Origin: an uncultured Gemmatimonadota bacterium
Lineage (GTDB): Bacteria > JAAXHH01
Length of the DNA stretch: 64,000 nt
Direction: 5' to 3'
NCBI GenBank assembly: GCA_951812955.1
Contig: OX638340.1
Location: 32,001-96,000 of the forward strand
Shown here: piece after piece, positions 33,623 to 44,032 of the stretch
How positions within the stretch are numbered: position 1 is the first letter of the stretch
Layout of the letters: each line of letters begins with the position of its first letter
Position numbers and translations under genes: made by a program
Notes under the pieces: model-generated
What the model was told of the DNA's origin: nothing
The model's database searches: none
Seen by the model: the letters and a program-made list of their open reading frames with translations, nothing else

Positions 33623-34693
33623 CTATTGACGAGCATTCGTCAGGTCTTCCAATTCATCTTCTTTGTAGGTGGCAGGTACCCATTCACGCGACAGGTATGG
33701 CTTGTCAATTTCGTCCAACTGTAATGCATCACGGTACCATTTGGGTAGGCCAGCTGTCGGCGGATTATCTGGATGGTAAATCGGCCGGTTCCATTGCGGC
33801 ATGCCGACTTCCGGCCAATGATCCTTGTCGTACTTCATAGGATATACCCACCAGAGTCCCAAATTAGATTCAACCAGGAAAATCTCGTCAGGCAAATAAG
33901 TACGCCCAGCAAGTAGAGTTGGTAACTGGTTCCCGATGAGGTCGAATCTCGTATGAGCTGCGTCCTGGCTTTCTAAAACCAGGACGGTTCGTGCTCCATC
34001 AGCACGACACTTCGCCAACTTTGGAAACTTGTCAGCAAAAGCTCTACGGATCCGTTCCGTCCGACAGCTTTCCAAGTCTTCGGGATAGTCAAGTACCGTT
34101 TGAACAAAGCCCGGCTTTCGTCCTGCCTTAATCCCATTCCGCCACCTCAGCAATTCGACTGTACAGTTTATACACGAGAGATCGTCTTTGATGCTATCGT
34201 CGGGAAAACAGTAAAGGCTGATTGGGATTCCATGGCAGTCGATAGGTAAAGACAGTAAGGTATTCCTCTCGTACATGGTCTGGGCACTGCTTAGAATCCA
34301 TTCGGCAAGGTTCTTCAAAGCCCTAACTCGTTTGACTTTCCCCCTGGGCAGACAAACATCTGTTGGTACTTGAAGCACGTAGTACATGGGATCTGGTAAC
34401 TGGCCGGCGAGGCTTTGTATCAAGTACTGTCTAATCTCCACGACGGTTAACTCAGTTTTAATATTGTTCTCAAAGGGTTCAATTATTGTGTGCTCAATCG
34501 CGTATTCTTGTTCACCCAATTTCATACGCAATTCCACTGGCGGCCCTACTCGATCACTCTCAGGATGACGTATTTCAGATCGTTTCTTCCGAGTGCGTCT
34601 TTCCATAGTCTTCACAACCGCGTCGCACGCCTTGCCCTCGTTTTTAGGTACGATTACGTGCGGTTTACTGTATGGAGTCTCGTTATTCTTCAT
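33623..34693 (-). CDS. Hypothetical protein at the island edge
   Basis: 356 aa, low GC, no recognisable motifs. Standalone gene with intergenic regions of 450 nt or more on both sides. Confidence 0.4.
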   Translation of the reverse strand: MKNNETPYSKPHVIVPKNEGKACDAVVKTMERRTRKKRSEIRHPESDRVGPPVELRMKLGEQEYAIEHTIIEPFENNIKTELTVVEIRQYLIQSLAGQLPDPMYYVLQVPTDVCLPRGKVKRVRALKNLAEWILSSAQTMYERNTLLSLPIDCHGIPISLYCFPDDSIKDDLSCINCTVELLRWRNGIKAGRKPGFVQTVLDYPEDLESCRTERIRRAFADKFPKLAKCRADGARTVLVLESQDAAHTRFDLIGNQLPTLLAGRTYLPDEIFLVESNLGLWWVYPMKYDKDHWPEVGMPQWNRPIYHPDNPPTAGLPKWYRDALQLDEIDKPYLSREWVPATYKEDELEDLTNARQ

Positions 34694-35149: not shown

Positions 35150-35635
35150 TCACAAGTTGTTTGTACGTCGGAGTAATTTGGATGATACCCAACTCCATGC
35201 TTTCCAAACAAACGAGGTTTTAGTTAGTAAGCCTTGCTCTTTATCAGTCTCCATACGGTCATCGGAGTTGAAAAACCGGTTGATTTCCAATCTATGGTTA
35301 CTTCGCTCCTCAAGAATCTCACGTGTAGACCATCGGCGTGACCAATGAACTTTGTTATTTTCGATCCAATAATGTGATTGACACTCCTCACTCCAATTTC
35401 CCACAGAGGGCCGGAGACTTATAGATAACCCATTGTAAATAAACGCCCACCCAGTGGGATGTAACGGTGTGTTTATCTCGCTACCACACCCACATGCACA
35501 TTTATGGATTACAGTACGGTACTTCAGCGAAATGTAAATTCGACCGTCTTCTAAACGGTTGGGTACAACATCCGAGAAGACCGGGGTAAATTCAGTCGTT
35601 TTTGAAGACCGTTCTAATCGTTTTGTTTTGCACAC
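35150..35635 (-). CDS. Small Cys-rich (HKCACGCG) predicted metal-binding protein, last gene of the E1/Ubl operon
   Basis: 161 aa. Its start overlaps the E1 gene stop by about 22 nt. CxCxCx cluster plus two further Cys residues. Confidence 0.45.
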   Translation of the reverse strand: MCKTKRLERSSKTTEFTPVFSDVVPNRLEDGRIYISLKYRTVIHKCACGCGSEINTPLHPTGWAFIYNGLSISLRPSVGNWSEECQSHYWIENNKVHWSRRWSTREILEERSNHRLEINRFFNSDDRMETDKEQGLLTKTSFVWKAWSWVSSKLLRRTNNL

Positions 35636-36831
35636 TCGACGTAGTCCCGGTTTATTATCTTGTTTCCGTCCATTATATATCCGGAATCACCCTCATGAAC
35701 TAAGTCTTGAAATACACCTCGGATTTTCTTCCATTTTATTACTGCCAATGCTGCATTGAGGGCGTTTAGTTCTGCCAATTGTATGTTTCTTTCGTACTCT
35801 CCAACATCTCCTCCTGCCATATCGATACGATTCTTCTCTGTCACATGGCCCCTATTGCCCGGTTCACTAGTAGTCGTTCGGAGTATCCCGCCTAGTCTAT
35901 CTCCTTCACGATAAATCCCCATCCCGGTATCAATACAAACGCTCTCGGCATCTTCGCAAATCCTAAATATAGATTGTTTTATGGCATGGCCATCAATACA
36001 CAGGAAAACTGTATCGTGTCCTTTTAACTCATTAACGTTTTCCTCCACAATCTTAGTGGGATGTGCAACAATACCGCGACGCATACGACTGTAGCGTTCG
36101 AAATGAAACTCTGATTTGATGGGGCCTCCTTCCAATTCTTCAACCGCTACTGCTCCCGGTGCTCGAAATGAGTTGTGCTGAAGAAAACGGTCATCGTCAT
36201 ACAGATGGATCTCTTTAACCCATGTCTTAGCAACATAGTCGAGAACGTAAGCCCCGGTCCCACCTAAACCAACAATTGCTACAGTCTCCCCTTCCAATCT
36301 CGAAGATATATCTGTTGTATTTTGACGGGCTGACGCTGTTTCCATAAACGCGAATACATTCGAATTGCTCTCGGATTTCGCGACTTTCCACTTCTGCGCC
36401 GACGTTGACGAGTCGATTTTCCTAGCTTCTCGCGTTATGATTTCAATATAGGTTCTTACTTTGTGTTCATAATCTATGTACCGCCCGCCTTCCGGCTTGG
36501 CTGAAAACATATAGGTTAACTTTAGACCATTGCTCAGAATCTGGTTGTGGCCGCTTTCACCCAGAACCTCAAGCTTCTGTGAATTCCCGTCATACGGAAA
36601 TTCTCCTGTCCAATAGGCCACGTGGTCACCTGGTTGACTAGTTCTCTCGCCTCTGAGGTCAAGTTGCATTACTAATGTTGCCTCTGCAATTCCTCCAACA
36701 CTGGTAACATAAGGCACATCTTGTATTAGAAGGTAGCCATCTATAAATCGGATTGTATATCCGGATTCCTCTATGCGTTTCAGATCCGTATTACGAGCGA
36801 TCAGTGCGTGTGACATTGAATACTGTCCCAT
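35614..36831 (-). CDS. E1-like ThiF/MoeB-family adenylyltransferase with a cysteine-free N-terminal domain of about 190 aa (possible E2/UEV-like)
   Basis: ThiF Rossmann motif VAIVGLGGTGAYVLDYVAKTWVKEIHLYDDD. The N-terminal half contains no Cys. Confidence 0.7.
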   Translation of the reverse strand: MGQYSMSHALIARNTDLKRIEESGYTIRFIDGYLLIQDVPYVTSVGGIAEATLVMQLDLRGERTSQPGDHVAYWTGEFPYDGNSQKLEVLGESGHNQILSNGLKLTYMFSAKPEGGRYIDYEHKVRTYIEIITREARKIDSSTSAQKWKVAKSESNSNVFAFMETASARQNTTDISSRLEGETVAIVGLGGTGAYVLDYVAKTWVKEIHLYDDDRFLQHNSFRAPGAVAVEELEGGPIKSEFHFERYSRMRRGIVAHPTKIVEENVNELKGHDTVFLCIDGHAIKQSIFRICEDAESVCIDTGMGIYREGDRLGGILRTTTSEPGNRGHVTEKNRIDMAGGDVGEYERNIQLAELNALNAALAVIKWKKIRGVFQDLVHEGDSGYIMDGNKIINRDYVECAKQND

Positions 36832-37060
36832 CCTTTATCTTCACATTTTCGCCTTCGCTCAAACCACCTTCTTGTTCACGTCCACCACCTTCATAAAACA
36901 GCACTGTGTAACTAATTAAAGCGCCACGACCACCATCCGGGTAAGCTAAATCCACTATTTCGTCAAAAGTCACTTCGTCATGGTCTACGGTGTACGGACG
37001 TGCATTGATTATGATATCAAAACCCTTGTTCTCTAGACTTTGCTGAGGTTCTTTTTCCAT
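36791..37060 (-). CDS. Small beta-grasp ubiquitin-like protein, multiubiquitin-family-like
   Basis: About 89 aa from the internal ATG (MEKEPQQ). Pattern FDIIINARPYTV..VTFDEIVDLA...ENVKIKDGTVFNVTRTDRS resembles the Multi_ubiq family. Its 3' end overlaps the E1 start. Confidence 0.45.
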   Translation of the reverse strand: MEKEPQQSLENKGFDIIINARPYTVDHDEVTFDEIVDLAYPDGGRGALISYTVLFYEGGGREQEGGLSEGENVKIKDGTVFNVTRTDRS

Positions 37061-37089
37061 ATTAATGGCTTCCGCCTCCTTATCGGGAT

Positions 37090-37629
37090 TCAGGCTATGT
37101 CCCTGATGCCCAATGTCAACCCTCCTGAGCGAACGAATTCCCTCCATAGAGGTGACAACAATTGAGCTGCAACTGGAGCTTCACGAGAAGAAAGTATAAT
37201 TTGTAATTCTCTCCTTTCATCTAAAGGTGCCTCTTTCCATATATTGTACAAATCCCAGCAGTTTCCGTCCGTCAAAATACCGTACCTTACCCCGACCTCA
37301 GTACAGTATGTCAACATCTGAGTGCGGTGTGTGTTGAGATCCTCGTTCAGTTTTTTTGCCTCGACTAGAACCAGTGGCTTTCTATCTTCTCCAAGTAATG
37401 CGTAGTCAACACGCTGATTCGCTTGATTTCCTGTACGGAATTCAACTTCTACATGCTCTACGATGCTAACGTCCCAAGCAAGGGCTTTCAATACCGGATC
37501 CACTAATACATTCCTTGTCCTTATCTCATTTTTCTGGAGGTATTCTCCGTGTTTTACTATTACCTCACGTGCTCGTTGTAGCGTGCTTACCAAGGGTTCT
37601 AACAAATCAGTCATAAACTCCCTCACCAC
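37090..37629 (-). CDS. PD-(D/E)XK restriction-endonuclease-like protein (HsdR N-terminal-domain-like), first gene of the operon
   Basis: 179 aa. RVDYALLGEDRKPLVLVEAKKL gives the D...EAK catalytic motif, followed by QMLTY...GILTDG. Confidence 0.6.
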   Translation of the reverse strand: MVREFMTDLLEPLVSTLQRAREVIVKHGEYLQKNEIRTRNVLVDPVLKALAWDVSIVEHVEVEFRTGNQANQRVDYALLGEDRKPLVLVEAKKLNEDLNTHRTQMLTYCTEVGVRYGILTDGNCWDLYNIWKEAPLDERRELQIILSSREAPVAAQLLSPLWREFVRSGGLTLGIRDIA

Positions 37630-37982: not shown

Positions 37983-38351
37983 ATGAAATGGGAAGTCGAT
38001 TTCCATCCGGCGTTTGATCCCGAGTTTGCCGCCATGGCACTGAAGGTGCAGGACGAACTGCTTACACAAGCAAAGCTCTTGGAGGAGTTCGGACCAACAT
38101 TAGGTCGTCCGCGGGTGGATACGCTAAATGGTTCGCGGCATGCTAATATGAAGGAACTTCGTTTTACTATGACTGGCGGAGTCTGGCGGGTCGCATTTGC
38201 TTTCGACCCCGAACGTAAGGCCATGCTACTGGTTGCCGGCGATAAATCGGGAGTCGGTGAACAACGGTTCTACCAGCAACTGATCAGGAAGGCGGATCAC
38301 CGCTTCGATCTACATCTTGAACTGTTGAAAGCTGAGAGGAGGCCAAGATGA
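37983..38351 (+). CDS. Type II toxin, RelE/HigB-like (phage Gp49-like addiction-module killer)
   Basis: 122 aa. KELRFTMTGGVWRVAFAFDPERKAMLLVAGDK matches the HigB/Gp49 family pattern. Confidence 0.7.
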   Translation: MKWEVDFHPAFDPEFAAMALKVQDELLTQAKLLEEFGPTLGRPRVDTLNGSRHANMKELRFTMTGGVWRVAFAFDPERKAMLLVAGDKSGVGEQRFYQQLIRKADHRFDLHLELLKAERRPR

Positions 38352-38698
38352 GTACGTTGACGGACAGAATGGACAAGCTGTCCCCGTCCCGACGGAAGAA
38401 GGTAGAAGAACGGGCCAGGGCGTTGATCGCCGAAGAAATGTCGCTACGGGACTTGCGCAAGGCTCGAAAGCAGACGCAGATGCGGGTCGCCGAGAAGCTC
38501 GGGATCAATCAGGAAAACGTGTCCCGCCTTGAACAGCGCAGTGATCTCTTGATTTCCACCCTCAGCGGCTATGTCGAGGCGATGGGGGGTAAACTGAGTC
38601 TGGTGGCGGAGTTTCCGGACCGGCCGCCAGTGGCGCTGACTGGCATTGCGGCACTCGACGACCTTTTGGAGCGGCCTGCAGAATCTCGTACCGGATGA
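38348..38698 (+). CDS. HTH (XRE-family) antitoxin, HigA-like
   Basis: 116 aa. HTH region MSLRDLRKARKQTQMRVAEKLGINQENVSRLEQ. 4-nt ATGA overlap with the toxin gene. Confidence 0.7.
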   Translation: MSTLTDRMDKLSPSRRKKVEERARALIAEEMSLRDLRKARKQTQMRVAEKLGINQENVSRLEQRSDLLISTLSGYVEAMGGKLSLVAEFPDRPPVALTGIAALDDLLERPAESRTG

Positions 38699-38964
38699 AG
38701 AGAGGATCGCGATATGGTCGCAGGCGGGTCGCTAAACGTCGAAAACACACCGGTTCCCGGGTGTCGCGAATCTCAGATTTGGGATATATAACTACAGTGA
38801 GGCGGGACCGGCCTTGGCCTTAGTGGCAAAACGCCTACGATCGATCAGTTCGCATTCCACGCTTGTGAAGATTCTCTTGCACAGCACGTTGTCATAGTAG
38901 TCGTTTACCGAGCCCATAGATGGCCAGATGCCAGCCGTGCAAACCGGTGCCCGTCGGAGCGAAC

Positions 38965-40140
38965 TCATCCACTAGGCGTTCGTCCACCGACCTCCGTCGA
39001 GATTTGTAGAATATACATCAGTGACGGATCGGATTTGAGGAGAATGGCCCGCAGCTGTTCGTCGGTTAGCTTTGTCTCCAATTCGTGGACCCGGTTGAAA
39101 AACTCGATCAGCTTCACCAGTGCTTTGGTGTCTTGGATCACGAATTCAGACAGCGGATCGTTGTACAACTCCCGACAGACGTACAGTACCCTCGCTCGAC
39201 GGGTTGGCTTGCCCTCATGTAGCAGATCCTTCTGATTAGCTAGGCTCAGAATCCATGCAGTAACTAGATCGTCGGGGGCTAATCGTCGGAGCAAATGGTT
39301 CCACAGCTCCCTGAGGGAGGTCAGAATGTGCCGTGCCCGGTCGGCACTGTTTCCATTCAGGGCATCTCGAGCGCCGATGTATGGCCCAGCGAGACTTGGA
39401 TCGACCTGTTGCAGCAGAATGATGCAGTCGGATGTTTCTAACTCTGCCTCGGCGACAAACTGGAATTCCGTTTCGGCCTCTTCTTCGTCCCGTTCACCCC
39501 AGGGGCGAAGAGTTTTGAGCGCGAAGCTGGTAGTGTAGATTTCACGAGTGGCGCCTGGCAAAACGAAAGCAGGTAAGCGCGTAATGTCCGAGACCTCCCG
39601 CAGTGAACCGGCCAAACTTCCATATGAGGCAGCCACCTGGGCAATCGAACTCTCCAGCCCTGAAATGGCGGGCATCTTGATTTGGAATTGACTCCCTATG
39701 GCCTTGAAATCGATGTTCGCCATGAGTCGTTCCGTGGCGATCAATTGCAAAGAAGTATCGCCCAGGGCCAACTTAGCGGATGCTTGAAGCTGGAAAAGTT
39801 GGGAAACTCCCTGTTGAAGAAGATTCGACTGGTCAAGCCAGGATTCATGAGTGGTATGCAGACTCTCGGCAATCCAGTTAGAAGCGGTAGTCTGTTTGAT
39901 CACATCATGCCAGTGTTGATTGGCGTTGGCGATCTCTTTAATCCCGGCCACTGCTTCAGGTATTTCGAGGGCACGACTGATTTCCATTTGATGGAGACGG
40001 AATGGTTCTATCGTGCGTTCTAACTGTTCTATAACGCCTAGGTAGGATGGCTTGGCCAAACGGTTGGAAGCCTCCATGTCCTGACGGAGTTTGCCGATGG
40101 CGGATTTTGCGGACATCAGATCTTCGGAGAGAATATCCAT
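38965..40140 (-). CDS. Hypothetical protein, third gene downstream of SIR2-HerA
   Basis: 391 aa soluble protein with no recognised motifs. 83 nt downstream of herA on the same strand. Confidence 0.45.
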   Translation of the reverse strand: MDILSEDLMSAKSAIGKLRQDMEASNRLAKPSYLGVIEQLERTIEPFRLHQMEISRALEIPEAVAGIKEIANANQHWHDVIKQTTASNWIAESLHTTHESWLDQSNLLQQGVSQLFQLQASAKLALGDTSLQLIATERLMANIDFKAIGSQFQIKMPAISGLESSIAQVAASYGSLAGSLREVSDITRLPAFVLPGATREIYTTSFALKTLRPWGERDEEEAETEFQFVAEAELETSDCIILLQQVDPSLAGPYIGARDALNGNSADRARHILTSLRELWNHLLRRLAPDDLVTAWILSLANQKDLLHEGKPTRRARVLYVCRELYNDPLSEFVIQDTKALVKLIEFFNRVHELETKLTDEQLRAILLKSDPSLMYILQISTEVGGRTPSG

Positions 40141-40223
40141 ATTTTGATGTTAGTCCCGGAGTTGTCAAATTGCAAGGCTGTGTGGATGTTTGGGTATGCT
40201 GGTACCTTCAACCTCAATTGAAA

Positions 40224-41915
40224 TCATCGGCGCTGATATCTCCAACGCTTAACAACATCTTGAATTTCCGAGTCAGGAGTTGCATCGTTTTGCCACCCCT
40301 TATCGAAGTCAATGTCATTTGATTTCGGTAGCTGATCAGGATTTAAATCACGTATTAGGATGCGCGACGGCAACATTGCAGCTTGGCCAACGAAAATTGC
40401 CTCTTGCCTCCGTAAACCAGAAAGCATCTTTGTCAGACCAGACATCGAATCTGGTAGAATGGATCGAACATGCTCCCTGTCGGCGTCATTGGTGATTCGC
40501 ATAACAATCCAGCTATTGCATTGTGAAAGAACCGTTGCCTCAACTTCGCTTGGGCGCTGGGATACCAACAGGAGCCCTACACCATACTTTCGACCTTCCT
40601 TAGCAACACGCCTGATTGCTTCTTGAGCAGCCTCATATTGCGCTTCGCCCCGATTTGGAACGTAGCGATGAGCTTCTTCACATACCAGTAAAACTGGGTC
40701 AGATTCGCGCTCTGATTGGGTTTGCCAAATCTTCAGATTGAATAAAGTTCGAGCAATTACCGCACTTGATACACCGGCTACTTCATTGGGGACACCGGAC
40801 AGATCTACTATTCTTGGTTGAGACCCATCCCCGATAAGTTGCTTGATAACAGTAAGAAAAGGATCGTTATTTTCCCATTCTGACATCATGAATCGGAGTC
40901 GAGCATCGGTCATTAAGACTTCGAGTTTTTGGAGTATCGAGTTATGAGAATCTTGTTTGCTGAGCGCAGTTGGCTTATCCGCTTCAATCTTTTCTATAAG
41001 CCTCGATAACTTGTATGGTACGGGGGAATCAACAGTTATGAGATTGACATCAAGACCTAGCTGATGCGCACCTTCTTCGCGGGCGTAGATTAAGGCTCTC
41101 TTTACGATGTTAGCTTGTGAGGTCGCAACAAATTCAGTTCTTCCGATCAACAAGGCAACCGTCTCTTGAAAGTTCAAGAGCCAGTATGGAAGTGTTAGTG
41201 TTCCGTCATCAGAGGAAAGTTTAGTATGATCAGTAAATGCGCTGCCGTATTCACCATGGGGGTCGAGTATAATAACCCTGGGCTTCCATTTCGTATATGA
41301 TCTAGTGTCACCTCTATCAAGAATACTGTGAATGATAGCTGCGACCGTACCTGACTTGCCAGCGCCAGTGGAGCCGAGAACGGCTGTGTGTTTACCAAGT
41401 AGTTCATTCAAATCTGCAAAACATGGGGTCCCGCCTGAACCTACATGCTGCCCGAGCTGAACAACGGCACTTTTCGCTTTCCCGTAAATAAAACGCAATT
41501 CAGCTTTTGGAGTCAGATAGACAGTTTGCTGTGGGAGTGGATAGGTTGATACCCCACGTTCAAAAAAAAGCTTCCATTCACTAGATGTCCCATGAATCCA
41601 TTCGCCTTCGCCGAACAGGTCTGCTTCGACGATTCTTTCATCCGAAGATGATGCTGACACCAATCCTCGTTCTGCTTGAAATTCTGATTTCATCCTTAGT
41701 CGGCCGACCAACGCGTAGACGGTTTGACGCCCGAAATGGACTTTGACAATGGAACCAAATTGTCCGATGGGATAGGTTTCTCCCGCATACACACGCGAGA
41801 GTTCAGAAAGAGTCGGATTTAACTCGGCAACAAGGTGAGATCCATCAACTTCAATTATCTTGCCGATTGCCAGATTCTCAATTGGCTCATTGGGATTGCG
41901 AGTCGAAACACTCAT
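40224..41915 (-). CDS. HerA/FtsK-like ATPase (DUF87) of a SIR2-HerA defence pair
   Basis: Walker A LGSTGAGKSGT. Walker B LLVCEEAHRY, followed by LLLVSQRPSEV. 563 aa. 4-nt start/stop overlap with the sir2 gene. Confidence 0.8.
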   Translation of the reverse strand: MSVSTRNPNEPIENLAIGKIIEVDGSHLVAELNPTLSELSRVYAGETYPIGQFGSIVKVHFGRQTVYALVGRLRMKSEFQAERGLVSASSSDERIVEADLFGEGEWIHGTSSEWKLFFERGVSTYPLPQQTVYLTPKAELRFIYGKAKSAVVQLGQHVGSGGTPCFADLNELLGKHTAVLGSTGAGKSGTVAAIIHSILDRGDTRSYTKWKPRVIILDPHGEYGSAFTDHTKLSSDDGTLTLPYWLLNFQETVALLIGRTEFVATSQANIVKRALIYAREEGAHQLGLDVNLITVDSPVPYKLSRLIEKIEADKPTALSKQDSHNSILQKLEVLMTDARLRFMMSEWENNDPFLTVIKQLIGDGSQPRIVDLSGVPNEVAGVSSAVIARTLFNLKIWQTQSERESDPVLLVCEEAHRYVPNRGEAQYEAAQEAIRRVAKEGRKYGVGLLLVSQRPSEVEATVLSQCNSWIVMRITNDADREHVRSILPDSMSGLTKMLSGLRRQEAIFVGQAAMLPSRILIRDLNPDQLPKSNDIDFDKGWQNDATPDSEIQDVVKRWRYQRR

Positions 41916-43072
41916 CTTTCACCTCCAAGCAGGCGGGTCAAGTTTTCAAATTTCCACCAAAGTAGGTCGGTGTCGGATGGTGCTTTTTTGCTGCCGTGAA
42001 AGAAGCCAAGATTAGCAAAAATAAGTACTTGCTCGGTTATGGAGTCATCATCATGCCATCTCTTAAGTAGGCCTTTTGGTTCATCATCAGAGGTAAACAC
42101 CACGACGGTAAGACGACCGTCAGATTCACGTAACGCCCGGTCGATTTCGAGATTGATGTGTGAATCACCAAAGCGGTACCCGCACGTAATCAGTATTTTT
42201 TGCGAACCTGAAACAGCCGTTAGTGCTTTCCGCCCATATTCTGCCAATTGAGCATAGGGGTCTCTTTGAGTTTCACGGTATTTGGTGGATGCTGGCCAAA
42301 TGAGAATCTTGTTTTTACCCCCGGATTGTACTTTGACATTACCGGAAACTCGGCGAGGGAGTGGATCACCATCGAACTCGCACCAGTTTATTGAACCGTG
42401 CAGTTTGAAGATCCTCGACGAGAGTCCATCACGCTCAAAATCCGCAGGATTCCACCATCCGGTGACTCCGCCTTCCAGACCATCTGAAAAGGAAACTCGC
42501 TCAAGCGCGAGTGCATCTTCAAGAAGCGTGTCGTAGTTGAGGCAGAGATAGTCCACACGATCAAAGTTGCCCGTTTTACCAGGCCGAATTGGGCGATGAA
42601 CCGCCTTTACGAATTTGCGATGAACCACTACATCGATTTGCTCGTCATTGTGCTCGATTATATTGGAAATGATACGCTTTATATCTTCTGCAGATTCCCT
42701 TAGTTGCTGGCCAGAATATCGATTGTCTTTGATAGTGATCTGGTCATCGGTTGCGCCTCGCTCCGCCCTTCTTTCAGCGATGGCCAGAAGGTCGATTATT
42801 TCACTAAGGTAGTCCTCAATATCTGGATCACTCGCACCGGTGAAACCTTCCTTAATTCCCTTGAGGATCTCTGTGGTATAGTCACTCAAAGCACCTATTT
42901 CCAGTACTTTAGTAGTTAGTTCTTCCATCAATGGTAAACCCGCGCATTTGCTACAACCTGCACCAATTAGGAACACTTTCCCATGCTGGACCATAAGTTC
43001 GTCTAGCGTATCATAAGCTTCAACTAATTGAGGGGTATCCCATATTGCGTCAAGATTGTCAGGTGCGCTCAT
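41912..43072 (-). CDS. SIR2-family (DHS-like NAD-binding) protein, putative NADase effector
   Basis: VFLIGAGCSKCAGLP (a sirtuin GAGxS-like motif) and KLHGSINW. 386 aa. Confidence 0.75.
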   Translation of the reverse strand: MSAPDNLDAIWDTPQLVEAYDTLDELMVQHGKVFLIGAGCSKCAGLPLMEELTTKVLEIGALSDYTTEILKGIKEGFTGASDPDIEDYLSEIIDLLAIAERRAERGATDDQITIKDNRYSGQQLRESAEDIKRIISNIIEHNDEQIDVVVHRKFVKAVHRPIRPGKTGNFDRVDYLCLNYDTLLEDALALERVSFSDGLEGGVTGWWNPADFERDGLSSRIFKLHGSINWCEFDGDPLPRRVSGNVKVQSGGKNKILIWPASTKYRETQRDPYAQLAEYGRKALTAVSGSQKILITCGYRFGDSHINLEIDRALRESDGRLTVVVFTSDDEPKGLLKRWHDDDSITEQVLIFANLGFFHGSKKAPSDTDLLWWKFENLTRLLGGER

Positions 43073-43405
43073 ATTAACCCTTTCTCATTTTATCATACTC
43101 CAATTTCCTGACTTCATTGCTATTCATGTGTCGCTATGCCATTAACTTCAACAACACGTCGTCTAGACCAAACCGATCATTCAAGGATTTAGCTATCCGA
43201 ACGAGTTTCGGACTTGGTCCGGAGTAAATAGAGAATCAGTCGCCCAAAGTGAGAGAATGTGTGACGGACAGGGAAAATCGACGATGTGGAACGGTTGTTC
43301 GAGAGGACATTAACAGACGCAATCTCTTAGAAACAAGTGCAAAAAACCCGTCATCCCCGAGAATGAGCCAGACCCTAGAGAGACGGGTTGTCTTTTTAGA
43401 ATTGA

Positions 43406-43766
43406 TGGAGGTGGGGGGAATCGAACCCCCGTCCGAAAGTGCCTAAGCGGAAACTTCTACATGCGTAGCCTGTTGTTTAATCTCGTTCCGGAGAACTCCA
43501 GCAGGCAGGATTTAACCGGAACCAGCCTCAGTTGAGTCTCGCCTGGCGCCCTGAGGCGCGACGCCCGGCCAGCCTGCTTTATCGACGCTTTTGACCATCC
43601 CGCAGGCGGGGCTGATCAAAAACGGGCCGGCCTAAGTTACCTTAGGCAGCCATTGCATACGAAGGTTCGTCTGCAGATAAATTGTTCCCAATGGTTTTAC
43701 GAGGTTATCGGGGACCTCGGCACGCGATTCCCGCCGCATCCACTCCCGTCGAATCCTTTCACCCCC
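43406..43766 (-). ncRNA. ssrA: tmRNA (SsrA); the predicted tag reading frame encodes ADEPSYAMAA followed by TAA
   Basis: On the minus strand the 5' end reads GGGGGTGAAAGGATTCGACGGG and the 3' tRNA-like end reads TTTCGGACGGGGGTTCGATTCCCCCCACCTCCA. The internal frame is GCA GAC GAA CCT TCG TAT GCA ATG GCT GCC TAA. Confidence 0.85.
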
Positions 43767-43880
43767 ATGTCAAAGAACATAGGCCATTTGGGCGCTTCTG
43801 TCAAATTCGCCCGGCCGCGATGGTTCGGTTGCATCATGATACGGCAGCACCATGGTACGGCTGCATCGCGGTTTGGCCAG

Positions 43881-43953
<73 letters not shown>

Positions 43954-43959
43954 ATTCCA

Positions 43960-44032
43960 TGAGCGCGGAAGGAATCGAACCTTCGACCCACAGATTAAAA
44001 GTCTGTTGCTCTGCCAACTGAGCTACGCGCCC
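43960..44032 (-). tRNA. tRNA-Lys (anticodon TTT)
   Basis: Minus strand: GGGCGCGTAGCTCAGTTGGCAGAGCAACAGACTTTTAATCTGT...GGTTCGATTCCTTCCGCGCTCA. Confidence 0.85.

What the first reader, a model, noticed from the sequence alone, without database searches (positions are those of the whole stretch)
38965..40140. Uncharacterised 391-aa third gene directly downstream of SIR2-HerA; possible extra component of a three-gene variant
Seen: the 391-aa ORF starts 83 nt after herA on the same strand with no intervening terminator-like hairpin. It is soluble, has no recognisable catalytic motif, and has the same low GC content. Established: canonical SIR2-HerA systems are two genes. Inference: this may be a sensor, regulator or anti-anti-defence adaptor forming a three-component variant, or an unrelated standalone defence gene.
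Basis: inference. Interest (0 to 1): 0.6.

Follow-up and report, generated by a model that had tools for sequence, protein, structure and literature searches.

The report
BREX-tail nuclease-like gene beside SIR2-HerA
The 391-aa gene is real, but it is not a dedicated third part of SIR2-HerA: it is a conserved, predicted nuclease-like gene that normally marks the end of a mobile BREX defence locus, and SIR2-HerA is only one of about eight defence systems found slotted in just upstream of it.

Summary
The ORF (38965-40140, minus strand, 391 aa) and the 83-nt gap after herA are confirmed. It is not featureless. Residues 254-368 match Pfam PF18165 (pP_pnuc_1, predicted nuclease). The modelled C-terminal domain resembles HEPN folds.

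Across about 110 related loci the gene (X) is a constant flank, not cargo. The recurrent layout is type-3 BREX (BrxHII-PglZ-BrxA), then a slot, then X and DUF2188. The slot runs from the brxA stop codon to the X start codon. It holds GmrSD, Hachiman, Qat, helicase-DUF2290, Wadjet, two SIR2-HerA types, or nothing. X proteins about 90% identical follow five different cargo types.

X matches the BREX genes in GC3, not the cargo. SIR2-HerA relatives with 78-80% identical HerA lack X. More distant X relatives follow hsdS or are fused to HsdS.

The window keeps a 13-codon brxA fossil upstream of SIR2 and an IS3 fragment after X. The trio is therefore a remnant of such an element. X is still under purifying selection (dN/dS about 0.3).

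The three-gene SIR2-HerA variant is not supported. The most likely function, by inference only, is a latent HEPN-like back-up or guardian effector of BREX and restriction-modification systems.

The parts
38965..40140 (-). Gene X: 391-aa ORF, a member of Pfam PF18165 (pP_pnuc_1). All-alpha protein.
   Evidence: ORF. Pfam. AlphaFold2 model with pLDDT 89.1, pTM 0.90, 18 helices and one small hairpin. Under purifying selection, dN/dS 0.30-0.35 within the window's lineage and 0.09-0.14 among BREX-frame loci.
39436..40140 (-). N-terminal helical region of X (aa 1-235). Poorly conserved across the family.
38968..39435 (-). C-terminal conserved domain of X (aa 236-391). The Pfam PF18165 match covers aa 254-368 (39037-39381). 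HEPN-like fold. R270, S275 and H352 are invariant. The R277-x4-H282 stretch 'RELWNH' lies at 39295-39312.
40141..40223 (-). 83-nt herA-X spacer. Its distal part is homologous to the native brxA-X intergenic region of the empty site, so it belongs with X rather than with the cassette.
   Evidence: Alignment A4 of the window, L026, L007, L031 and L048 with empty-site L032. No terminator; a promoter-like hexamer pair at 40168..40141 is not above chance.
40224..41915 (-). herA (563 aa), part of the SIR2-HerA cargo cassette.
   Evidence: Pfam DUF87; PADLOC HerA 1.6e-138. 88-91% identical to HerA in BREX-frame loci.
41912..43072 (-). SIR2 (386 aa), part of the SIR2-HerA cargo cassette.
   Evidence: Pfam SIR2_2; PADLOC SIR2 1.7e-68. 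79-82% identical in BREX-frame loci.
43134..43176 (-). Fossil of the last 13 codons plus stop of brxA (RFGLDDVLLKLMA*), the gene on the left side of the cassette slot in BREX-frame loci.
   Evidence: blastn aligns window 43176..38999 with L031 1814..5999 at 80% identity. Alignment A5. Coordinates. p250 is BrxA (PADLOC PDLC02444, E 2.3e-123).
38792..38932 (-). Fragment of an IS3-family transposase C-terminus just downstream of X. It marks the right-hand truncation: DUF2188 is lost and the X tail is replaced after aa 381 (38999).
   Evidence: Translation. tblastn to annotated IS3-family transposases, 58% identity over 41 aa, E 4e-10. Pfam gives no hit because the fragment is too short. Homology breakpoint at 38999.

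Best explanation
Shown:
- The 391-aa ORF (X) is an intact gene of the pP_pnuc_1 family.
- In its close relatives it is the constant right-hand flank of a defence-cassette slot at the 3' end of a mobile type-3 BREX locus: ...BrxHII-PglZ-BrxA | slot | X-DUF2188.
- The slot runs from the brxA stop codon to the X start codon.
- In different elements the slot holds GmrSD/BrxU-like type IV restriction, Hachiman, QatABCD, helicase-DUF2290, Wadjet, a second SIR2-HerA type plus SbcCD-like genes, the window-type SIR2-HerA, or nothing.
- In this window the element has been truncated on both sides. Only a 13-codon brxA fossil remains on the left. An IS3 fragment replaces the X tail and DUF2188 on the right. 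SIR2-HerA-X is what is left, next to the tmRNA gene.
- X is therefore neighbour to SIR2-HerA by cassette insertion, not by functional design.

Inferred:
- X is a latent effector with a variable N-terminal helical sensing or docking region and a conserved HEPN-fold C-terminal domain (predicted nuclease; invariant R270, S275, H352).
- X works with DNA-modification-based immunity (BREX, type I and II restriction-modification) as a back-up or guardian. This rests on more distant relatives that follow hsdS, follow a type II R-M pair, or are fused to the C-terminus of HsdS.
- In the window X probably persists as an orphan that still confers some benefit on its own.

My confidence is about 0.9 for the evolutionary and architectural part and about 0.35 for the nuclease-guardian mechanism.
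For: Variable cargo:
- Among 76 close-relative loci with upstream sequence, the gene immediately upstream of X is SbcC-like (24), GmrSD (16), window-type HerA (13), Hachiman helicase (13), other (5), DUF2290 (2), QatD/TatD (2) or BrxA directly (1). DUF2188 follows X in 57 of 82 loci (cargo identities).
- One cluster of X proteins, about 90% identical to each other, spans five cargo types.

Boundaries:
- Flank DNA identity is about 80-96% up to the brxA stop and again from the X start.
- The empty site is 81 nt.
- The herA-X spacer aligns with that empty site.

Composition:
- X has GC3 0.61-0.68, like PglZ, BrxA and DUF2188 (0.65-0.75 in most loci). Most cargo has 0.41-0.53. The same step occurs in the window.

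HerA side:
- L110 and L111 (HerA 78-80% identical) lack X. L109 has a disrupted X beside an intact SIR2-HerA.

Remnants in the window:
- The brxA fossil and the IS3 fragment.

Selection:
- dN/dS is below 1.

Function:
- Pfam PF18165 match.
- Five HsdS-X fusion representatives, one of them inside an hsd-type operon.
- 16 loci with hsdS followed by X.
- A plasmid locus with MTase-REase followed by an X-like gene.
- X is absent from the phage collection.
- The R-M guardian concept (PrrC, PARIS) is reviewed in PMC12707154. Auxiliary or back-up nucleases next to BREX are described in PMC12839542.
Against: - In the window's own lineage (six loci: the window, L023-L026 and L028) X is kept intact beside SIR2-HerA with no BREX or R-M nearby. 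So it does something without them, or possibly with SIR2-HerA.
- Two of the roughly eight cargo types contain a SIR2-HerA pair, which could hint at an affinity.
- The canonical Rx4-6H histidine (H282) is replaced in about a quarter of family members, and I could not inspect the 3D position of the conserved residues.
- No nuclease activity or protein-protein contact has been shown for any member.
- Contexts of the more distant family members are sparsely sampled.
Confidence: 0.6

Rival explanations
1. X is a true third component (sensor, regulator or adaptor) of a three-gene SIR2-HerA variant, co-transcribed with and acting on the SIR2-HerA complex.
For: - Same strand, 83-nt gap, no terminator.
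- The order SIR2-HerA-X recurs in the window's relatives (L023-L026, L028) and in 8 BREX-frame loci including Desulfobulbus rhabdoformis.
- All 24 contigs read for one HerA cluster carry X downstream.
- A second SIR2-HerA type also lies within 5 kb upstream of X in about 24 loci.
Against: - X about 90% identical follows four unrelated systems.
- Cassette boundaries exclude X, and an empty site exists.
- The GC3 of X matches BREX, not SIR2-HerA.
- SIR2-HerA with 78-80% identical HerA lacks X, and X is disrupted beside an intact SIR2-HerA in L109.
- The 24 contigs are one and the same BREX element.
- Published SIR2-HerA systems work as two genes (PMC11472057, PMC11514289, PMC13434337).
Confidence: 0.07
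2. X is a self-contained defence or toxin gene, possibly paired with the small DUF2188 protein (PADLOC candidate PDC-S16). It merely rides at the edge of defence islands and does not interact with BREX, R-M or any cargo.
For: - X-DUF2188 adjacency in 57 of 82 loci.
- DUF2188 matches PDC-S16 at E 5e-37.
- X persists, under selection, in the window's lineage with neither BREX nor DUF2188.
- X also occurs apart from R-M genes, for example next to T4SS and DRT-like genes on pDSHI01 and in L114.
Against: - HsdS-X fusions in five cluster representatives argue for physical coupling to R-M complexes.
- DUF2188 is absent from the hsdS-linked clade and from the window.
- If DUF2188 were an antitoxin, its loss here should have been lethal or should have inactivated X.
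Confidence: 0.25
3. X is not an effector. It is a non-catalytic helical protein serving the mobile element, for example a regulator of downstream or upstream genes, or a factor that keeps the slot recombinogenic. Alternatively, in this window it is a decaying relic without function.
For: - No catalytic activity is shown for any member.
- H282 of the candidate Rx4H motif is not universally conserved.
- The constant position at a recombination junction.
- Constraint in the window's lineage is relaxed, dN/dS 0.30-0.35 against 0.09-0.14.
- The C-terminal tail is replaced after aa 381.
Against: - Strongly conserved polar residues R270, H271, S275, R277, T313, R314, Y320, R323, D337 and H352, which is typical of an active or ligand-binding site.
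- No HTH or other DNA-binding domain was detected.
- The ORF is intact in all six loci of the lineage, with dN/dS clearly below 1.
Confidence: 0.12

Closest known systems
Pfam PF18165, pP_pnuc_1 (predicted pPIWI-associating nuclease)
   Same: The C-terminal domain of X matches the model well above its curated cut-off, 74.2 against 26.3 bits. It is all-alpha with conserved charged residues, as the family name implies.
   Different: No Argonaute or PIWI gene is nearby, in the window or in any of the related loci examined. The contexts here are BREX, R-M and other defence systems. The family has no experimental characterisation that I could find: full-text searches for the family name and accession returned nothing.
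HEPN-superfamily RNases used in defence (MNT-HEPN toxins, RnlA/LsoA, the AbiA HEPN domain, the anticodon nuclease PrrC)
   Same: The modelled C-terminal domain is most similar to HEPN structures. An R-x4-H stretch (R277-H282) is present. The genomic setting next to R-M or BREX parallels HEPN back-up effectors (PMC12839542) and PrrC inside EcoprrI (PMC12707154).
Canonical two-gene SIR2-HerA anti-phage system
   Same: The two upstream genes are a typical SIR2-HerA pair, with strong PADLOC matches, a 4-nt overlap and the same strand.
   Different: X is not part of that system's conserved architecture. It belongs to the flank of the slot into which the pair was inserted.
Defence hotspots and systems embedded in BREX or R-M loci (for example BrxU/GmrSD within a BREX island; P2/P4 hotspots)
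   Same: Conserved flanking genes bracket interchangeable defence systems, and GmrSD/BrxU-like genes are among the cargo (PMC12707154 on BrxU).
   Different: Here the slot is defined to the codon, from the brxA stop to the X start. It sits at the end of a type-3 BREX on an element that carries a relaxase. The right flank is a pP_pnuc_1 gene plus DUF2188.

Membership tests
Three-gene SIR2-HerA variant (X as a dedicated component) | X homologs co-occur with SIR2-HerA across independent loci, and X variants track the SIR2-HerA partner | tested here: not met
   Only 13 of 76 close-relative loci have the window-type HerA upstream. One cluster of X proteins about 90% identical to each other spans five cargo types.
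Three-gene SIR2-HerA variant (X as a dedicated component) | SIR2-HerA of this subtype is accompanied by X | tested here: not met
   L110 and L111 (HerA 78-80% identical) have other genes downstream. L109 has a disrupted X beside an intact SIR2-HerA. The loci that do carry X are the same BREX element.
Three-gene SIR2-HerA variant (X as a dedicated component) | X moves together with SIR2-HerA as one cassette | tested here: not met
   DNA homology between elements with different cargo resumes at the X start codon. The GC3 of X matches the BREX flank.
Three-gene SIR2-HerA variant (X as a dedicated component) | X is required for, or modulates, SIR2-HerA defence | not testable with these tools
   Needs a reconstituted defence assay with and without X.
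Pfam PF18165 pP_pnuc_1 | Score above the curated gathering threshold | tested here: met
   74.2 bits against 26.3, E 9.8e-21, residues 254-368. All listed homologs carry the same precomputed domain.
HEPN superfamily | Four-helix up-down bundle of HEPN topology | tested here: met
HEPN superfamily | Conserved Rx4-6H catalytic motif | tested here: inconclusive
   R277-ELWN-H282 is present in the window. R277 is invariant in the 28-sequence C-terminal alignment and at least 90% conserved in the 73-sequence one, but H282 is replaced in about 7 of 28 diverse members. The invariant H352 sits in an N-R-x-H context. The 3D placement could not be inspected.
HEPN superfamily | Detectable sequence or profile homology to known HEPN families | tested here: not met
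   No HEPN chain appears in PDB profile searches up to E = 10. hhalign to a Ymh-family protein gives probability 0.1. No Pfam HEPN-type family hit.
R-M / BREX guardian or back-up effector (PrrC-like logic) | Encoded inside or directly after an R-M or BREX operon, or fused to one of its subunits | tested here: met
   For the family: BrxA followed directly by X (L032); BREX frame; hsdS followed by X in 16 loci; five HsdS-X fusion representatives; a type II R-M followed by an X-like gene. For the window itself only a 43-nt brxA fossil remains.
R-M / BREX guardian or back-up effector (PrrC-like logic) | Physical association with the guarded complex, and activation when that complex is inhibited | not testable with these tools
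   Needs pull-downs and infection or anti-restriction-protein challenge experiments.
Toxin-antitoxin-like pair X + DUF2188 | Obligate co-occurrence of the two genes | tested here: not met
   DUF2188 follows X in 57 of 82 close-relative loci, but it is absent from the hsdS-linked clade and from the window's lineage, where X stays intact.

The most novel reading that the evidence does not exclude
pP_pnuc_1 proteins such as X are an unrecognised, widespread class of HEPN-fold guardian effectors. In this reading they dock, through their variable N-terminal helical region, onto the specificity or modification module of BREX and type I R-M systems, hence the HsdS fusions. They fire when that first-line system is disabled. 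The brxA|X junction of a promiscuous, relaxase-bearing type-3 BREX element is then a codon-precise slot that collects whole defence systems between the guarded system and its guardian.
Probability: 0.25. Interest if true: 0.65.

Novelty: new member of a known kind. Interest (0 to 1): 0.4.

Why it matters
- It removes a false lead. This locus gives no evidence for a three-component SIR2-HerA, so models of SIR2-HerA sensing need no extra subunit.
- It shows that a tight, same-strand neighbour can be the fixed flank of a cassette slot rather than a partner. This is a general caution for guilt-by-association in defence islands.
- It points to an experimentally untouched family. PF18165 has about 1,250 clusters at 50% identity. 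Its position after BREX and R-M genes and its HsdS fusions make a guardian or back-up-nuclease hypothesis directly testable.
- It describes a mobile type-3 BREX element, found in genomes of at least five phyla at about 90% protein identity, that swaps complete defence systems at one site.

Tried and rejected
- Foldseek against PDB with the full-length model found nothing below E 0.25.
- Sequence-profile searches of PDB, full length and C-terminal, found no meaningful hit.
- hhalign against a Ymh-family protein from L106 was insignificant, although its only aligned stretch pairs RELWNH with RNLYSH.
- NCBIfam and PHROGs give no family for X.
- A literature search for the Pfam name or accession returned zero papers. 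The 2013 pPIWI paper does not describe this domain.
- A search for att-like direct repeats bounding the island next to the tmRNA gene found none of 14 nt or more.
- Phage origin or an anti-defence role: there is no hit in 50,697 phage records and a single IMG/VR contig.
- Context look-ups of distant representatives were mostly uninformative because the contigs are short or the neighbours unannotated.
- The window's own protein could not be located in the contig index, and the source organism was not identified.
- The first attempt at a metagenome scan with the 73-sequence alignment failed for lack of a conserved stretch. It was repeated with a 14-sequence alignment.

Full report
**1. Observation**

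Upstream on the same strand lie herA (40224..41915, 563 aa) and SIR2 (41912..43072, 386 aa). These two overlap by 4 nt. The herA-X gap is 83 nt.

Both upstream genes are bona fide. Pfam gives DUF87/HerA and SIR2_2. PADLOC gives HerA at 1.6e-138 and SIR2 at 1.7e-68. No terminator-like hairpin lies in the gap. A promoter-like hexamer pair is present at 40168..40141, but such matches are no more frequent in this region than in shuffles.

Two parts of the description fail.
- The protein is not featureless. Residues 254-368 match Pfam PF18165 (pP_pnuc_1, 'predicted pPIWI-associating nuclease') at E 9.8e-21, 74 bits against a 26.3-bit cut-off.
- Its composition is not that of SIR2-HerA. X has 52.4% GC and GC3 0.57. 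herA has 46.4% and 0.40, and SIR2 has 46.9% and 0.43.

**2. The protein**

Homologs are abundant. 672 word-indexed hits were found, the best 120 all about 75% identical and drawn from very different taxa. An exhaustive search found 1,250 clusters at 50% identity with E ≤ 1e-3.

Conservation is concentrated in the C-terminal 150 residues. R270, S275 and H352 are invariant. D267, H271, R277, T313, R314, Y320, R323 and D337 are nearly so. The N-terminal 235 residues vary.

AlphaFold2 gives a confident all-alpha model, pLDDT 89.1 and pTM 0.90. Whole-protein fold searches returned only generic helical bundles.

An R-x4-H stretch (R277-ELWN-H282) is present. However, H282 is replaced in about a quarter of diverse members. 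No sequence-profile link to solved HEPN proteins was found. I therefore call the domain HEPN-like in fold. Catalytic equivalence is untested.

**3. Context in relatives**

I collected about 110 loci:
- 16 from species-representative genomes;
- 80 from metagenomes;
- several from exact-protein look-ups.

I mapped the window's proteins and the neighbours' proteins onto them by tblastn. Neighbours were identified with Pfam and PADLOC.

A recurrent layout emerged. It begins with an SNF2 helicase of about 965 aa, corresponding to BrxHII. Then come PglZ (664 aa) and a 250-aa protein that is BrxA (PADLOC E 2.3e-123). Next is a variable segment. Last come X (384-387 aa) and a 77-aa DUF2188 protein, which matches PADLOC candidate PDC-S16. 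The order BrxHII-PglZ-BrxA is the 3' end of type-3 BREX as described in PMC12839542.

The variable segment holds one of the following:
- a GmrSD/BrxU-like gene;
- Hachiman (HamA plus a 1,050-aa helicase);
- QatABCD (QatA E = 0, through to TatD);
- helicase plus DUF2290;
- Wadjet JetC/JetD;
- a second, distant SIR2-HerA followed by SbcD/SbcC-like genes;
- the window-type SIR2-HerA;
- nothing (L032).

Counts for 76 close relatives with upstream sequence are: SbcC-like 24, GmrSD 16, window-type HerA 13, Hachiman 13, other 5, DUF2290 2, TatD 2, BrxA directly 1. DUF2188 follows X in 57 of 82 loci.

**4. X is flank, not cargo**

Four independent lines agree.

(a) Clustering of 99 X sequences puts proteins about 90% identical to each other behind five different cargo types.

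(b) I compared, by blastn, a BREX-frame locus that carries SIR2-HerA (L031) with loci carrying other cargo. Identity is 90-96% up to the brxA stop codon. It is 84-93% again from the X start codon onward, and there is nothing in between. The empty site L032 aligns on both flanks at 79-83%. Its slot is 81 nt long. The distal part of the herA-X spacer, in the window as well, aligns with that 81-nt intergenic region.

(c) In most loci X shares GC3 (0.61-0.68) with PglZ, BrxA and DUF2188 (0.65-0.75). SIR2-HerA, Hachiman and helicase-DUF2290 cargo have 0.41-0.53. The window shows the same step.

(d) From the HerA side:
- HerA proteins 78-80% identical to the window's are followed by a type ISP R-M gene or a PIN_12 gene, not by X.
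- In Methylomarinum sp. Ch1-1 the X gene is disrupted while SIR2-HerA is intact.
- One HerA cluster has X downstream in all 24 contigs read, but those contigs are all the same BREX element. That element also carries NikA-like and relaxase/primase genes.

**5. History of the window's copy**

Window 43176..38999 aligns as one block with L031 1814..5999 at 80% identity.

The left end is a 43-nt fossil of brxA (43134-43176). It still encodes RFGLDDVLLKLMA*, against RYGLDDELLKLKA* in the frame loci.

The right end falls at codon 381 of X. Beyond it the tail differs. A fragment of an IS3-family transposase follows at 38792-38932, in place of DUF2188.

Related genomes carry the same truncated trio beside the same purA, tRNA-Lys and tmRNA neighbours. 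The trio is therefore a remnant of the BREX element, inherited within this lineage.

X remains intact in all six loci of the lineage (the window, L023-L026 and L028). Its dN/dS there is 0.30-0.35. That is relaxed relative to 0.09-0.14 among frame loci, and relative to 0.15-0.23 for herA and SIR2 in the same genomes, but it is clearly below 1.

**6. What X most likely does**

The wider family points to DNA-modification-based immunity rather than to SIR2-HerA.
- A clade about 53% identical to X lies directly after hsdS in hsdR-hsdM-hsdS operons (16 loci). It is followed by an AAA_15/AriA-like ATPase and a protein of about 320 aa.
- Five cluster representatives are HsdS-X fusion proteins. One of them sits in the same operon layout.
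- A Phaeobacter plasmid has Eco57I-type MTase, then PaeR7I REase, then an X-like gene.
- In the empty BREX site, X directly follows brxA.

X is absent from phage genomes. Guardian systems of R-M such as PrrC and PARIS are established (PMC12707154). Auxiliary or back-up nucleases, including HEPN, next to BREX have been catalogued (PMC12839542), although that paper does not mention this family.

My inference is that X is a latent HEPN-fold effector. Its variable N-terminal region would dock on or sense a BREX or R-M module, and it would act as a back-up. This step is inference. No activity or interaction is shown.

**7. Rivals**

- The three-gene SIR2-HerA model (0.07) is contradicted by every test in section 4. 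What favours it is persistence of the trio in one lineage, and the fact that two cargo types contain SIR2-HerA pairs.
- A fully autonomous X, or an X-DUF2188 module (0.25), fits the orphan copy here. It fits the HsdS fusions poorly.
- A non-catalytic role, a role in maintaining the mobile element, or relic status (0.12) cannot be excluded. It fits poorly with the conserved polar residues and the purifying selection.

**8. Verdict**

X is a new member of a known kind: auxiliary predicted-nuclease genes at the edge of BREX and R-M loci, in an already defined but uncharacterised Pfam family. Interest is moderate. The finding as stated dissolves. However, the family's HsdS fusions and the codon-precise cassette slot of a widely transferred type-3 BREX element are concrete and testable.

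Noticed in passing
window 35150-37629 (minus strand): A ubiquitin-like conjugation operon. It comprises Multi_ubiq (36791-37147), a DUF6791-ThiF E1-like protein (35614-36831, NCBIfam PRK06153 type) and DUF6527 (35150-35635). It is preceded by a 179-aa HSDR_N / PD-(D/E)XK-like protein (37090-37629). It is low in GC like the rest of the island, and is probably a bacterial ubiquitination-like defence module.
   Followed up: no
window 37983-38698 (plus strand): A Gp49/HigB-like toxin (122 aa) and an HTH antitoxin (116 aa), convergent with X. The same pair follows X in L026 and L028 at 95-99% identity.
   Followed up: partly
window 43403-44032 (minus strand): The tmRNA gene and two tRNA-Lys genes lie directly next to the low-GC island (about 33.1-43.2 kb). 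This is a classical island insertion site, but no att-like direct repeat of 14 nt or more was found.
   Followed up: partly
window 33623-34693 (minus strand): A 356-aa ORF with no hit in Pfam, PADLOC or NCBIfam. An 83% identical copy lies just downstream of X, after an N6_Mtase fragment, in L023-L025. So the Bub-like operon and the toxin-antitoxin pair are insertions specific to this genome.
   Followed up: partly
L007, L011, L013, L015, L047, L052 (for example L007 11174-12559): A 461-aa protein with no Pfam, PADLOC or PHROGs hit is inserted between X and DUF2188 in six loci, at 81-91% identity. This looks like a second, smaller insertion point to the right of X.
   Followed up: partly
L008 11145-12113; L043 9445-10422; L109 9244-10221: A Na_Ca_ex family membrane protein of about 322-325 aa is inserted between DUF2188 and a conserved terminal segment of about 260 nt. 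This suggests a third variable position and a defined right end of the element.
   Followed up: partly
L093 8001-11766; L094, L095, L101; L117 1091-6233: In type I R-M operons, X (free or fused to HsdS) is followed each time by an AAA_15/AAA_21 ATPase and an unannotated protein of about 320 aa. The ATPase matches PADLOC PDC-M55A, NsnB and AriA-like models. This may be a three-gene module of its own.
   Followed up: partly
L108 8548-11132; L048 10082-12346: The BREX-slot-X element carries NikA-like and relaxase/TraI/RepB-primase genes just downstream. Its genes are about 90% identical between genomes labelled Desulfobacterota, Planctomycetota, Cloacimonadota, Synergistota and Gammaproteobacteria. 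This implies recent spread between phyla.
   Followed up: partly
L109 7730-8949 (Methylomarinum sp. Ch1-1, CP157743.1): X is reduced to a 212-aa C-terminal ORF, with an opposite-strand 94-aa ORF in the gap, while the flanking SIR2-HerA and DUF2188 are intact. This is a natural knock-out of X.
   Followed up: no
L014 71-1987: Upstream of the second SIR2-HerA type plus SbcCD-like cargo lies a helicase/Res-like ORF of more than 638 aa, with a QxxGRxxR motif and a possible C-terminal nuclease. So these elements may start with a type III-like R-M system instead of BREX.
   Followed up: no
window 40132-40140, and the X start region of other loci: In loci with SIR2-HerA cargo the X ORF starts three codons earlier (MDI-MSDDLK) than elsewhere (MSDDLK or MPDDIK). 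In the window the ancestral second ATG has become CTC, so only the upstream ATG can serve as start.
   Followed up: yes
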